64,000 nucleotides of DNA, from sequence record PZ386951.1; one strand, 5' to 3'. The notes below the pieces were generated by a model. It saw only the letters and a program-made list of their open reading frames with translations. It searched no databases and was not told where the DNA came from. A program made the position numbers and the translations under genes. This stretch comes from a phage. Below are positions 11,701-16,409 of the stretch, one piece after another (position 1 is the first letter of the stretch; every line of letters starts with the position of its first letter).

Positions 11701-11716
11701 AGGGGCCGAAGCCCCT
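11701..11716. terminator. GC-rich hairpin AGGGGCC-GAAG-CCCCT
   Basis: inverted repeat immediately downstream of the hoc stop. Confidence 0.5.
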
Positions 11717-11727
11717 TATGATTATGA

Positions 11728-13425
11728 TTATGGATAGGTATAGATGATACCAGTTTCTAAAGCAGTTTTATGAATGATGTATCCATTACGTGATTCTTGA
11801 ACATCAACTTCTGGATAGTCTTTCATCATCTTCTGAAGGGTGTAACGATGCAGGTAGTATTTACTATCTGGATCGTCAATTTTCCAATCTTTACCTTCTT
11901 CGGTCATTTTTTGTATTTCATCCATAACCCACCAACCGCACCAGATATAAGCTGAAGTACGATGTGGAAGAGGATGAACATAAGGCAATTCACCTTTAGG
12001 AGCAGGAGCTACTTTAGCCGTGACTGTTACATTACCAGTTTTGGTAACGGTTACAGGGTTATAATCTGCAGCAGATACAACAACAGAAACGCCAATCACT
12101 TGGGACCCTATATCAGACGTGTCAATCGCTAAAGTGCTAGTAGAACCTTCTACAGGAGAACCATCTTTGGTCCAAGAATAAACCCCAGTTGCACCTCCCG
12201 GAGCACCGATAACGTTGGCTTTAAAAGATGCCTCAGAACCTTGTTCAGTCATAATAGACTCAGGAGTCAGAGTAACTGAAACTCCGCTCATAGTCTTTTT
12301 GGTAATAGTTACATTACCGGTTTTAGTAACTGTAACCGACTTATAATCTGGGGCAGAAACAACAGCCGAAACCTCAATTACCTGTGACCCGATAGTAGAT
12401 GTATCAACTTCTAGAGTATTTGTTGAGCCATCAACAGGAGACCCGTCTTTGGTCCATGAATAAGCTACAGATGCTCCTGCCGGCGCTCCAGTAACATCGG
12501 CTTTAAAAGATGCTTCTGCTCCTTTTTCAGCGGTAATTGAACTAGGCGTTAGAGTAACAGAAACGGCTCCCATAGTCTTTTTAGTAAAAACAACCTCAAT
12601 ACCGTTAGTCGCAGTAGCTGGGTTATAATTTAATGCAGAAACCGTTACTTCACAATTCAGTGTGTAGCTGGTTTCCGTCGATTCAGTCAAGGTAATTGTT
12701 TTAGCAGTCTGACCTTCAATAACGGCATTATCACGTTTCCAGACATAAGCGATACTTGCACCTTCTGGAGCACCAACAACGTTAGCTGTAACTACCTGAG
12801 ACTGCCCAATCTCTTTGGAAACAGAAGTCGGGCTCAAAGTAACTGAAACACCGCTCATGGTCTTTTTAATAAAAGCAACAGCAATGCCTTTAGTTGCAGT
12901 TCCATTATTATATTCTGGAGCAGAAACCGTTACTTCACAATTCAGTGTGTAGCTGGTTTCCGTCGATTCAGTCAAGGTAATTGTTTTACTAGTTTGACCG
13001 GAAATAACAGAAGAGCCACGTTTCCAAACATAAGCAATGCTTGCTCCTGACGGTGCGCCAGTAACATCAGCTGTGACTACCTGAGATTGACCAACTTCCT
13101 TAGAAACAGAAGTCGGGCTCAAGGTTAAAGTAATTGCAGGCATAGTTTTGTTCTGAACGGTCAGAGTGGTTTCTGCCTCAGCAGTTTCTGCCACACCCTC
13201 TGCTGGGGTAACAGTAGCAACTACTTTAACAGTCTTACTACCTGCAGGTCCTGTAGCAACGTAATTCATAGCTGCGGTGACAGAAGATTGTTTTACGCCG
13301 TTTACTGTCCACACAAACGTTTCTGTGCCTTCAGCTGCGGCACCAGAAGTTGTTGCAGTAAAATTGGTTGTTGCTCCAATGACTGCCGAAGCAGCCAAAG
13401 GAGCAATAGATACGCTATAAGCCAT
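11728..13425 (-). CDS. hoc: Hoc outer capsid decoration protein with five Ig-like repeats
   Basis: 565 aa; five roughly 95 aa Ig-like repeats plus a C-terminal capsid-binding domain (YIWCGWWVMDEIQK); T4 position between 24.3 and inh. Confidence 0.85.
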   Translation of the reverse strand: MAYSVSIAPLAASAVIGATTNFTATTSGAAAEGTETFVWTVNGVKQSSVTAAMNYVATGPAGSKTVKVVATVTPAEGVAETAEAETTLTVQNKTMPAITLTLSPTSVSKEVGQSQVVTADVTGAPSGASIAYVWKRGSSVISGQTSKTITLTESTETSYTLNCEVTVSAPEYNNGTATKGIAVAFIKKTMSGVSVTLSPTSVSKEIGQSQVVTANVVGAPEGASIAYVWKRDNAVIEGQTAKTITLTESTETSYTLNCEVTVSALNYNPATATNGIEVVFTKKTMGAVSVTLTPSSITAEKGAEASFKADVTGAPAGASVAYSWTKDGSPVDGSTNTLEVDTSTIGSQVIEVSAVVSAPDYKSVTVTKTGNVTITKKTMSGVSVTLTPESIMTEQGSEASFKANVIGAPGGATGVYSWTKDGSPVEGSTSTLAIDTSDIGSQVIGVSVVVSAADYNPVTVTKTGNVTVTAKVAPAPKGELPYVHPLPHRTSAYIWCGWWVMDEIQKMTEEGKDWKIDDPDSKYYLHRYTLQKMMKDYPEVDVQESRNGYIIHKTALETGIIYTYP

Positions 13426-13434
13426 AGGTGTTCC

Positions 13435-14115
13435 TTATTTTAATGTTACGAAAGAAGAATTGCGTGTTTCACGAATTAGAACTGATCCATCACGATTAAT
13501 GTAATAAATTAAGCTAAATAATGTTTGGTGCGCTGACGCGTGTTCAAAACTAGTTGGGTGAGATTTCCAATCCGGAGTTTCAGCAATCCACTGGTAAATC
13601 CACCAAGGAACAGTACAGAATCCTGGATTTTTCCCAATCAGCTGAAGATTCGGACTAAAGTTTTCTGGAAGAGTAAATACAGACGGCTTTTCAGATTCAA
13701 TAATCTCAGCTACAGCCTGTTCGAATTTTTCTTCAACAAAAGGAGTATCTTCAATCAAAACTGAGGTATTTTCAGGAATTTTATCCGTTTCTACTACTTC
13801 AATTTTAATGTCAGATTTAACCGGAGAATCAATCAGAAGTGCTGCTTCTGGATTGACTTCTTCATCGTCATATTTTAATCCCTCTGCAGCATCAGCAGCA
13901 TCAATTAAGTCTTTAATAGATAACCCATCAGTCTCTGGCATAGGTTCACTAGCGAGCTTCTGGAGGGCTTCTTCAATATCAACAACGATATTATCAAAAG
14001 ATTTATTCTTTTTGACCTTTATACCAAACTGTTCAGCATATTCAGCTAATTTAGCTTTAGCTTCTTTGTTATCATCAAGAGCCTTAAGCTCTGCAATATA
14101 ATCTTTATCTATCAT
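13435..14115 (-). CDS. inh: Inh, inhibitor of prohead protease
   Basis: 226 aa, same length and position as T4 Inh. Confidence 0.8.
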   Translation of the reverse strand: MIDKDYIAELKALDDNKEAKAKLAEYAEQFGIKVKKNKSFDNIVVDIEEALQKLASEPMPETDGLSIKDLIDAADAAEGLKYDDEEVNPEAALLIDSPVKSDIKIEVVETDKIPENTSVLIEDTPFVEEKFEQAVAEIIESEKPSVFTLPENFSPNLQLIGKNPGFCTVPWWIYQWIAETPDWKSHPTSFEHASAHQTLFSLIYYINRDGSVLIRETRNSSFVTLK

Positions 14116-14128
14116 AATATTTCCTCAG

Positions 14129-14136
14129 TATAAATA
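14129..14136 (+). promoter_or_regulatory. T4-type late promoter TATAAATA upstream of uvsW
   Basis: exact TATAAATA 30 nt upstream of ATG 14166. Confidence 0.5.
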
Positions 14137-14165
14137 TAGATATATTTATTACATGGTATTTAGAC

Positions 14166-16156: not shown

Positions 16157-16184
16157 GATTGTCTCCTCTGAATTATATATCTAT

Positions 16185-16409
16185 TTATACAACTCTCATA
16201 TGCATATCAATGCCCATATCTTTAGAATAAAAATATTCATCAAGATATCCGGCAAATTTTCCTTTAATATAAAGGACATCTTCACCGCATGGGTGATCGG
16301 CCAGGATACGAATATCCTGACGCTTAAGATTATGCTTTTTCATTAAGAATTGAATTTCCGTTTCAAATTCTTCTTCATAATTAAAAGCATCATTAATATT
16401 ATATCTCAT
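16185..16409 (-). CDS. hypothetical protein (uvsY.-1 position)
   Basis: 74 aa with ATG start; abuts the uvsY stop. Confidence 0.6.
   Translation of the reverse strand: MRYNINDAFNYEEEFETEIQFLMKKHNLKRQDIRILADHPCGEDVLYIKGKFAGYLDEYFYSKDMGIDMHMRVV

What the first reader, a model, noticed from the sequence alone, without database searches (positions are those of the whole stretch)
11990..13140. Hoc carries five Ig-like domains arranged as two nearly identical tandem pairs
Hoc here is 565 aa against 376 aa in T4 as I recall it. Domains 2 and 3 are nearly identical at protein and DNA level, and domains 4 and 5 form a second nearly identical pair; stretches of about 70 nt recur at a roughly 285 nt period (for example 12641-12710 and 12926-12995). 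This implies two recent independent domain duplications or ongoing gene conversion in the capsid display protein, which is thought to mediate adhesion to surfaces or mucus. The repeats are also a likely site of recombination and assembly error.
Basis: seen in the sequence. Interest (0 to 1): 0.55.

Follow-up and report, generated by a model that had tools for sequence, protein, structure and literature searches.

The report
Chimeric five-Ig-domain Hoc capsid fibre
This T4-type phage carries a longer-than-usual capsid decoration protein (Hoc) whose five antibody-like domains were imported as a block from Klebsiella-phage relatives and are reshuffled by recombination between the repeats; it is an interesting but ordinary member of a protein family already known to vary in domain number.

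Summary
The ORF at 11728-13425 (minus strand, 565 aa) is hoc, lying between inh and 24.3/rnlB in a Tequatrovirus backbone. [quoted passage not shown] Ig2/Ig3 are 77% identical in protein and 78% in DNA. Ig4/Ig5 are 72% identical in both. Synonymous divergence is about 1, so the duplications are old.

The same cassettes, in the same order, occur in Klebsiella Jiaodavirus phages (Clarke_MM3, 566 aa). Cassettes at the same position in different phages are more alike (84-94% nt) than the paired cassettes within one phage (69-80%).

The Ig array is Jiaodavirus-derived (up to 100% nt identity in 60-nt bins). It is grafted onto a T4-type anchor. The junctions lie at the inh stop/hoc RBS and in the last strand of Ig5. 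All related chimeric alleles examined share both junctions.

One exact 69-nt tract (12920-12988 = 12635-12703) is a gene-conversion patch copied from Ig2 into Ig3. Sister alleles with 4 or 3 Ig domains have different crossover points, one apparently inside this tract. This shows recurrent unequal recombination.

Variable Ig number in Hoc (1-10 domains) is already published. Verdict: a new member of a known kind, of modest interest.

The parts
11728..13425 (-). hoc CDS, 565 aa plus stop codon
   Evidence: ORF list. PHROG 1149 'Hoc-like head decoration', E=8e-142. T4 Hoc chains 5vf3/8t1x, E=7e-133. Lies between inh and 24.3/rnlB as in T4.
13144..13425 (-). Ig-like domain 1 (cassette A, aa 1-94)
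   Evidence: Domain split. 52% aa identity to T4 Ig1. 93-100% nt identity to Klebsiella phage ValerieMcCarty04. Beta-sandwich in the AF2 model, pLDDT 82-93.
12859..13143 (-). Ig-like domain 2 (cassette B, aa 95-189)
   Evidence: 94% nt identity to ValerieMcCarty04 Ig2 outside the tract. Pfam Ig_2 hit at aa 125-167.
12574..12858 (-). Ig-like domain 3 (cassette b, old paralogue of B, aa 190-284)
   Evidence: 92.6% nt identity to Clarke_MM3 Ig3 but 71.3% to the window's own Ig2 outside the tract.
12292..12573 (-). Ig-like domain 4 (cassette C, aa 285-378)
   Evidence: Pfam Ig_3 and I-set hits at aa 289-344. 87% nt identity to Clarke_MM3 Ig4 and 99.5% to SG1 Ig3.
12010..12291 (-). Ig-like domain 5 (cassette c, old paralogue of C, counterpart of T4 Ig3, aa 379-472)
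   Evidence: 65% aa identity to T4 Ig3. 81-88% nt identity to the last Ig cassette of Jiaodavirus Hoc genes over its first 210 nt. Its last ~70 nt are T4-type.
11731..12009 (-). C-terminal capsid-binding domain, T4 type (aa 473-565)
   Evidence: 95% aa identity to the T4 C-terminal domain, against 78-82% to the Jiaodavirus ones. 88-100% nt identity to T4. Alpha/beta secondary structure in the model.
12920..12988 (-). Donor copy of the 69-nt gene-conversion tract (in Ig2, domain positions 156-224)
   Evidence: Exactly identical to 12635-12703. Carries variants private to this lineage's Ig2 that are copied into Ig3.
12635..12703 (-). Recipient copy of the 69-nt gene-conversion tract (in Ig3)
   Evidence: Flanked on both sides by b-type sequence. 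The Ig3-type cassettes of SG1, Clarke_MM3, ValerieMcCarty04 and P0001 keep b-type sequence here. 0 of 200,000 permutations give a run of 69 or more.
13431..13444 (-). 5' recombination junction (T4-type inh to Jiaodavirus-type hoc), at the inh stop codon / hoc ribosome-binding site
   Evidence: Informative sites in a six-way alignment. Identical junction sequence in seven chimeric alleles.
12071..12085 (-). 3' recombination junction (Jiaodavirus-type to T4-type) in the last beta-strand region of Ig5
   Evidence: Identical in seven chimeric alleles. The linker just downstream (about 12010-12030) is itself mosaic: APAPKGEL here, APEPEGEL in P0001/P0002.

Best explanation
This is the hoc gene of a T4-type (Tequatrovirus) phage, encoding the non-essential fibre that sits at the centre of each capsid hexamer.

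The protein is a chimera. [quoted passage not shown] Its displayed part is a five-cassette Ig array, A-B-b-C-c. That array came as a block from the Hoc lineage of Klebsiella-infecting Jiaodavirus phages. It entered by homologous recombination at two short conserved stretches: the inh stop/hoc RBS, and the last strand of the final Ig domain.

The pairs B/b and C/c are old paralogues. They were not duplicated in this phage.

Because the cassettes keep 70-80% identity and short identical runs, recombination-driven T4 replication occasionally mispairs them. This has two outcomes.
- Gene-conversion patches. Here 69 nt of Ig2 were copied into Ig3.
- Unequal crossovers, which in sister phages delete whole cassettes and give 4-Ig and 3-Ig alleles.

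Functionally, by homology, the protein should form a monomeric fibre about one and a half times as long as T4's 18-nm Hoc. It would present more Ig surface for weak binding to glycans, mucus or cell surfaces.

Shown: the gene identity, domain count, chimerism, junctions, age of the paralogues, conversion tract and allelic series. Inferred: the direction of copy-number change, the fibre length and the adhesion function.
For: Identity as hoc:
- PHROG, Pfam and PDB matches, and T4-like gene order.

Five Ig folds:
- The AF2 model has a mean pLDDT of 85.7. Block-mean pLDDT is 82-94 across the five all-beta domains. The alpha/beta C-terminal domain is modelled at lower confidence (block means 52-76).
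- Foldseek matches strings of Ig/cadherin domains.

Backbone versus insert:
- Window 1-24000 is 96-98% identical to T4, RB18 and SG1, with about 6% uncovered in T4 and RB18.
- The hoc Ig part is only 38-66% identical to T4. It is 91-100% (Ig1-Ig3) and 78-91% (Ig5) identical to Jiaodavirus hoc.
- An Ig1-Ig2 query hits 176 phage records: 155 Klebsiella and no Escherichia or Shigella.

Junctions:
- Mapped. The same junction sequences occur in WIN, SG1, P0001, P0002, P0003, P0007 and P0086, which points to a single ancestral swap.

Old paralogues:
- dS is 0.94 and 1.2, and dN/dS is 0.15-0.28.
- Same-position cassettes are more alike than paired cassettes.
- The same A-B-b-C-c order occurs in Clarke_MM3 and P0004.

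Conversion tract.

Allelic series with distinct crossover points:
- SG1 crosses over at domain positions 22-41.
- P0007 has a clean loss of Ig3 and retains an Ig3-type patch.
- P0086 switches from Ig2-type to Ig3-type across the 69-nt tract and retains an Ig4-type patch in its last Ig.

Fibre length and function:
- T4 Hoc is a 180-A fibre of four domains, and homologues carry 1-10 Ig domains (PMC10385173).
- Mucin binding has been reported for related Hoc proteins (PMC11853027, PMC13435897).
Against: - No experimental data exist for this phage.
- The direction of change (five-Ig ancestral with later deletions, rather than stepwise gain in the T4-type lineage) rests on parsimony.
- The five-Ig state is rare in both lineages: 4 of about 13 T4-anchor cluster representatives and 1 of about 105 Jiaodavirus-anchor ones among the top 120.
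- The C-terminal domain is modelled with low confidence (pLDDT 52-76).
- The raised G+C of the Ig array (43.8% vs 36.4% for the window) is not diagnostic, because T4's own Ig array is 40.9%.
- The conversion tract is seen in one assembly only. The exact protein is absent from the 15-billion-protein collection.
Confidence: 0.85

Rival explanations
1. Two recent, independent tandem duplications occurred in this phage's own hoc.
For: Clear 285/282-nt periodicity, and two pairs that are more alike within than between pairs.
Against: - The pairs are only 72-78% identical, with dS of 0.94-1.2.
- Each cassette has a closer counterpart (84-94% nt) in other phages.
- The same five-cassette order exists in Jiaodavirus phages.
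- For contrast, a genuinely recent duplication looks like the 100%-identical 111-nt repeat in phage TNG87.
Confidence: 0.03
2. The five-Ig allele was built inside the T4-type lineage. An unequal crossover between two different four-Ig alleles (A-B-C-c and A-b-C-c) produced a cassette gain, rather than the array being inherited en bloc from a five-Ig Jiaodavirus donor.
For: Four-Ig alleles of both kinds exist on the T4-type anchor (P0007/P0009 = A-B-C-c; SG1 = A-b-C-c) and outnumber five-Ig alleles.
Against: - SG1's single B-family domain begins with B-type sequence (positions 1-21) and then switches to b-type. That is the signature of a B x b deletion crossover, not of an original b cassette.
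- P0007 and P0086 carry relic patches of the cassettes they lack.
- The window's Ig3 starts with the same b-type 5' end as Clarke_MM3 and ValerieMcCarty04.
- The A-B-b-C-c order is present in Jiaodavirus.
Confidence: 0.08
3. It is an assembly or polishing artefact: either an extra repeat unit, or the 69-nt identical tract created by mis-mapped reads during consensus polishing.
For: Repeats are classic sources of such errors. The tract is seen only in this sequence, and the exact protein is not in public collections.
Against: - The units are 22-28% divergent and the longest exact repeat is 69 nt, shorter than ordinary reads.
- The ORF is intact.
- Three other contigs carry colinear 565-aa alleles. 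For P0001 the DNA is 97.35% identical over 1698 nt without gaps.
- P0086, from a separate assembly, is Ig2-type up to the tract and Ig3-type immediately after it. It also carries the window-specific 'SALNYNP' variant. This is what a crossover within a pre-existing identical tract would give.
Confidence: 0.04

Closest known systems
Bacteriophage T4 Hoc (376 aa; PDB 5VF3, 8T1X, 8T9R, 9MKB, 9MOF)
   Same: Same locus between inh and 24.3. [quoted passage not shown] Same architecture of a string of Ig-like domains followed by an anchor.
   Different: T4 has three Ig domains. The window's Ig1 is 52% and its Ig5 65% identical to T4 Ig1 and Ig3. The window's Ig2 and Ig3 have no close T4 counterpart (29% to T4 Ig2).
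Salmonella phage SG1 Hoc (Tequatrovirus, 470 aa, MF001354)
   Same: Same chimeric type with identical 5' and 3' junctions. Ig1 is 96-100% and the last two Ig cassettes about 100% identical in nt to the window's Ig1, Ig4 and Ig5.
   Different: One cassette fewer. Its second domain is a B/b hybrid with the crossover at domain positions 22-41, and it lacks the conversion tract.
Klebsiella phage vB_KpnM_Clarke_MM3 Hoc (566 aa, PP738795) and metagenomic P0004 (563 aa)
   Same: Same five-cassette order A-B-b-C-c. 87-89% aa identity over the full length.
   Different: Jiaodavirus-type C-terminal anchor (78-82% aa identity to the window's) in a Jiaodavirus genome context with 50-70% nt identity in the flanks. 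Clarke_MM3 has its own 42-nt identical patch at the 3' ends of Ig2 and Ig3.
Four-Ig Jiaodavirus Hoc (Kpn6N, PMBT63; 468 aa) and three-Ig form (Kpn5N, KP179; 373-374 aa)
   Same: Cassettes A, B, C and c are shared. The length polymorphism and mucin retention are already described in print (PMC9960720, PMC13435897).
   Different: They lack cassette b (and C in the three-Ig form) and carry the Jiaodavirus anchor.
Very long Hoc homologues such as Serratia phage Muldoon Hoc (1174 aa, 10 Ig domains)
   Same: Shows that Ig number in Hoc is free to vary widely while the anchor is conserved (PMC10385173).
   Different: Distant sequence. No evidence there of a cross-genus swap or of a closely related allelic series.

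Membership tests
Hoc (highly immunogenic outer capsid protein) of T4-like phages | C-terminal capsid-binding domain homologous to T4 Hoc residues ~281-376 | tested here: met
   95% aa identity to the T4 C-terminal domain. phmmer against 5vf3_Z gives E=7e-133, with query 290-565 aligned to chain 99-376. PHROG 21694/1149.
Hoc (highly immunogenic outer capsid protein) of T4-like phages | N-terminal string of Ig-like beta-sandwich domains | tested here: met
   Pfam Ig_3, I-set and Ig_2 above their cut-offs. The AF2 model has five all-beta domains with block-mean pLDDT 82-94. Foldseek top hits are multi-Ig/cadherin strings.
Hoc (highly immunogenic outer capsid protein) of T4-like phages | Conserved genomic position: inh - hoc - 24.3 - 24.2 - rnlB next to the head genes | tested here: met
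   Window ORFs compared with the T4 and RB18 annotation. Flanks are 93-100% identical to T4.
Hoc (highly immunogenic outer capsid protein) of T4-like phages | One monomer bound at the centre of each gp23* hexamer; dispensable for growth | not testable with these tools
   Known for T4 (PMC10385173). Needs virion proteomics, cryo-EM or a knockout.
Mucus-adherence (BAM-type) Ig-domain phage adhesin | Measured binding of the Ig domains to mucin glycans | not testable with these tools
   Reported for T4, PNJ-6, PNJ-9 and PMBT63 Hoc. The residues named there were not checked for conservation here.
Recently expanded identical-repeat surface proteins (copy-number-variable tandem repeats) | Near-identical (>95%) tandem units at the DNA level | tested here: not met
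   Units are 72-78% identical. The only exact stretch is the 69-nt tract.

The most novel reading that the evidence does not exclude
The Hoc Ig array behaves as a horizontally mobile adhesion cassette whose copy number can change. The whole displayed array can be swapped between phage genera (Jiaodavirus to Tequatrovirus) while the capsid anchor stays native. Ectopic recombination among the cassettes then generates 3-, 4- and 5-domain fibre-length variants within a single lineage, on which selection in different mucosal or host-surface niches acts.
Probability: 0.25. Interest if true: 0.45.

Novelty: new member of a known kind. Interest (0 to 1): 0.28.

Why it matters
Hoc is the standard display scaffold of T4 and the best-studied candidate for phage adherence to mucus. 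A natural series of closely related phages (flanks 95.5-98% identical) carrying 3, 4 or 5 Ig domains on the same T4-type anchor would allow two tests. One is whether fibre length and domain content change mucus or cell binding and immunogenicity. The other is whether T4 capsids tolerate foreign, longer Ig arrays. The result also warns annotators that hoc length differences among near-identical phages are real recombination products, not sequencing errors. It does not change what is known about how Hoc works.

Tried and rejected
- Tandem Repeats Finder at default settings reported only the Ig4/Ig5 array. The Ig2/Ig3 pair needed repeat finder.
- G+C content as evidence of foreign origin was rejected. 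T4's own Ig array is also G+C-rich, 40.9% against 43.8% here.
- Gene conversion between Ig4 and Ig5 was tested and not found. The longest identical run is 15 nt, and 88,113 of 200,000 permutations reach it.
- An exact-sequence look-up of the protein found nothing.
- A search for a canonical T4 late promoter (TATAAATA) upstream of hoc/inh on the minus strand found none. The nearest minus-strand site is 16182-16189. I did not pursue hoc transcription.
- BLAST mapping of the short alleles onto the window was ambiguous because of the repeats. I replaced it with site-by-site painting at informative positions.
- Literature searches for hoc with Tequatrovirus, recombination and Ig-like terms returned nothing relevant. 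One multi-term search failed on a term that was too short.
- RB49 Hoc (the crystal structure cited in PMC10385173) did not appear among the top 60 PDB sequence hits, which were crowded with antibody light chains.
Full report
**What is there.** The finding lies inside a single intact ORF on the minus strand, 11728-13425, encoding 565 aa. No ORF of 60 aa or more lies on the opposite strand within it.

The neighbouring ORFs correspond, by position and length, to T4 genes:
- inh at 13435-14115, and uvsW from 14166;
- on the other side 24.3, 24.2 and rnlB, in the same order as in T4 and RB18.

The protein matches several libraries:
- PHROG 1149 'Hoc-like head decoration' at E=8e-142;
- Pfam Ig_3, I-set and Ig_2 above their cut-offs;
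- the T4 Hoc chains in PDB entries 5vf3, 8t1x, 8t9r, 9mkb and 9mof at E=7e-133.

It is hoc, and T4 Hoc is indeed 376 aa.

**Checking the observation.** The protein divides into five units of 94-95 aa, each starting with the recurring K-[KT]-M boundary motif, plus a 93-aa C-terminal domain. In window coordinates:

| Part | Coordinates |
|---|---|
| Ig1 | 13144-13425 |
| Ig2 | 12859-13143 |
| Ig3 | 12574-12858 |
| Ig4 | 12292-12573 |
| Ig5 | 12010-12291 |
| C-terminal domain | 11731-12009 |

An AlphaFold2 model built on 28 homologues has a mean pLDDT of 85.7. It shows five all-beta domains with block-mean pLDDT of 82-94, followed by an alpha/beta domain at lower confidence. Foldseek against the PDB returns strings of Ig/cadherin-type domains such as DSCAM, five-domain ICAM-1 and cadherin ectodomains.

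The periodicity is real. Direct repeats of 285 nt (78%) and about 282 nt (76%) are found. A lag scan peaks at 285 nt (80%) and 282 nt (76%), against a median of 29% for other lags, with weaker peaks at 567, 570 and 852 nt.

The pairs are not 'nearly identical':

| Pair | Protein identity | DNA identity |
|---|---|---|
| Ig2/Ig3 | 76.8% | 78.2% |
| Ig4/Ig5 | 72.3% | 72.3% |
| Cross-pairs | 36-44% | not the focus |

The exact repeat is 69 nt, 12635-12703 = 12920-12988.

**The paralogues are old.**
- Synonymous divergence is 0.94 for Ig2/Ig3 outside the 69-nt tract and 1.2 for Ig4/Ig5. dN/dS is 0.15-0.28.
- Each cassette has a closer relative at the same position in other phages. Ig2 is 94% nt identical to ValerieMcCarty04 Ig2. 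Ig3 is 92.6% identical to Clarke_MM3 Ig3. Ig4 is 87% identical to Clarke_MM3 Ig4. Ig5 is 81-88% identical to the last Ig cassette of Jiaodavirus Hoc genes.
- Within-phage paralogues are only 69-80% identical.
- Klebsiella phage Clarke_MM3 (566 aa) and the metagenomic protein P0004 (563 aa) have the same five cassettes in the same order.

So this phage did not make the duplications.

**The gene is a cross-genus chimera.**
- Window 1-24000 is 96-98% identical to T4, RB18 and Salmonella phage SG1, all Tequatrovirus. In T4 and RB18 about 6% of the query is uncovered.
- That gap is the Ig part of hoc. In 60-nt bins the window is 93-100% identical to T4 through inh, and 88-100% again from about 12090 downward. 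From Ig1 through most of Ig5 it is only 38-66% identical to T4.
- Over the same stretch it is 91-100% identical (Ig1-Ig3) and 78-91% identical (Ig5) to Klebsiella Jiaodavirus hoc. The Jiaodavirus flanks are only 35-76% identical to the window.
- An Ig1-Ig2 query hits 176 phage records: 155 Klebsiella, 11 Enterobacter, 4 Raoultella, 3 Salmonella, and no Escherichia or Shigella.
- Informative sites place the 5' junction at 13431-13444, at the inh stop codon and hoc ribosome-binding site. The 3' junction is at about 12071-12085, in the last strand of Ig5, and is followed by a small mosaic linker.
- The C-terminal domain is 95% identical in aa to T4's, against 78-82% to the Jiaodavirus ones.
- Seven chimeric alleles have the same junction sequences, which argues for one ancestral swap. 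They are the window, SG1, P0001, P0002, P0003, P0007 and P0086.
- A shared host is plausible. Salmonella phage PSE-D1 is a Jiaodavirus and SG1 is a Tequatrovirus. This last point is inference.

**Gene conversion and unequal recombination.** Ig2 and Ig3 differ at 62 of 285 positions. All 62 differences lie outside domain positions 156-224, which are identical over 69 nt. Outside the tract, identity is 71.3%. None of 200,000 permutations of the mismatch pattern gives a run that long.

The tract carries Ig2-type sequence, including variants private to this lineage's Ig2. It is flanked on both sides by Ig3-type sequence. The Ig3-type cassettes of SG1, Clarke_MM3, ValerieMcCarty04 and P0001 keep Ig3-type sequence there. 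This is a conversion patch from Ig2 into Ig3. Ig4/Ig5 show no such tract: their longest run is 15 nt, which 88,113 of 200,000 permutations reach.

Public collections hold sister alleles on the same T4-type anchor.
- Three are 565-aa five-Ig alleles, 96-97% identical in protein to the window's (P0001-P0003).
- Several are 469-470-aa alleles.
- One is a 376-aa allele (P0086).

Site-by-site painting shows different crossover points.
- SG1 switches from Ig2-type to Ig3-type between domain positions 22 and 41.
- P0007 has lost Ig3 cleanly but keeps a short Ig3-type patch in its Ig2.
- P0086 is Ig2-type up to the tract and Ig3-type immediately after it. It carries the window-specific 'SALNYNP' variant. 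Its last Ig keeps an Ig4-type patch.

Clarke_MM3 has an independent 42-nt identical patch at the 3' ends of its Ig2 and Ig3.

Among the top 120 cluster representatives the architectures are:

| Architecture | Anchor | Count |
|---|---|---|
| A-B-C-c | Jiaodavirus | about 70 |
| A-B-c | Jiaodavirus | about 32 |
| A-B-b-C-c | Jiaodavirus | 1 |
| A-B-b-C-c | T4 | 4 (including the window) |
| Four Ig | T4 | about 8 |
| Three Ig | T4 | 1 |

Five Ig domains is the rare, maximal state.

**Artefact check.**
- The longest exact repeat is 69 nt and the units are 22-28% divergent, so ordinary reads resolve them.
- Three further contigs from other samples carry colinear 565-aa alleles in the same inh-hoc-24.3 context. 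For P0001 the DNA is 97.35% identical over 1698 nt without gaps.
- The copy number is therefore credible.
- The conversion tract itself is seen only in this sequence. The P0086 crossover supports it indirectly.

**How it most likely works.** By homology, the C-terminal domain binds the centre of gp23* hexamers. The Ig array projects outward as a flexible monomeric fibre. T4's four-domain Hoc is a 180-A fibre (PMC10385173). A six-domain protein would reach roughly 270 A; this is my extrapolation.

Related Hoc proteins have been reported to bind mucin or fucosylated glycans through different Ig domains (PMC11853027, PMC13435897). Keeping the native anchor while swapping the display array fits the anchor's need to match the local capsid lattice. 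T4's recombination-dependent replication (established knowledge) provides the machinery for both the swap and the ectopic exchanges.

**Comparison with what is known, and novelty.**
- Variable Ig number in Hoc is already published. Homologues have from 1 to 10 Ig domains (PMC10385173).
- A two-Ig variant has been described in PNJ-9.
- Four-Ig PMBT63 has been described, and the Kpn5N/Kpn6N three- versus four-Ig polymorphism has been attributed to deletion or duplication (PMC9960720).
- A five-Ig Jiaodavirus Hoc (Clarke_MM3) and a chimeric Tequatrovirus Hoc (SG1) are already in GenBank.
- In the papers I searched I did not find three things described: the chimeric origin, the shared junctions, and the cassette-level allelic series with conversion tracts.

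These are expected behaviours of tandem Ig genes in a highly recombinogenic phage. I therefore rate this a new member of a known kind, with modest interest (0.28).

Noticed in passing
L014 903-1124 (Klebsiella phage TNG87, PV402692): Its hoc is 505 aa because of a perfect 111-nt x 2.0 tandem duplication (100% match) inside the third Ig cassette, out of register with the domain borders. It is either a genuinely recent duplication that should disrupt one Ig fold, or an assembly artefact.
   Followed up: partly
L009 and L010 (GCA_026249965.1 and GCA_013865575.1): 164-kb and 171-kb contigs deposited under Shigella sonnei and Shigella flexneri assemblies encode chimeric Hoc alleles in the T4 inh-hoc-24.3-rnlB context. 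The proteins are labelled 'hypothetical protein [Shigella ...]'. They look like complete T4-type phage genomes.
   Followed up: partly
window 14116-14165: inh (13435-14115) and uvsW (from 14166) are adjacent. The segE homing-endonuclease gene that T4 carries between them is absent, as in RB18. The P0001 and P0086 loci instead have a NUMOD3 endonuclease gene next to uvsW.
   Followed up: no
L002 (Clarke_MM3) hoc, last 42 nt of Ig2 and Ig3: An independent 42-nt exact match between the 3' ends of Ig2 and Ig3, where Ig3 carries Ig2-type sequence. This suggests a separate conversion event in a Jiaodavirus phage. ValerieMcCarty04 Ig3 has a tail that differs from both types (its protein ends ...VTITKKT, like the C-family cassettes).
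   Followed up: partly
window 11716-11732: A TTATGA x 2.8 micro-repeat overlaps the hoc stop codon. The downstream ORF corresponding to 24.3 is 71 aa here, against 67 aa in T4.
   Followed up: no
window, whole: The T4 late-promoter core TATAAATA occurs 19 times against 8.8 expected. None lies on the minus strand just upstream of hoc or inh; the nearest minus-strand site is 16182-16189.
   Followed up: no
literature (PMC13435897): [quoted passage not shown] In the sequences analysed here, including the 468-aa class, the capsid-binding domain is C-terminal.
   Followed up: no
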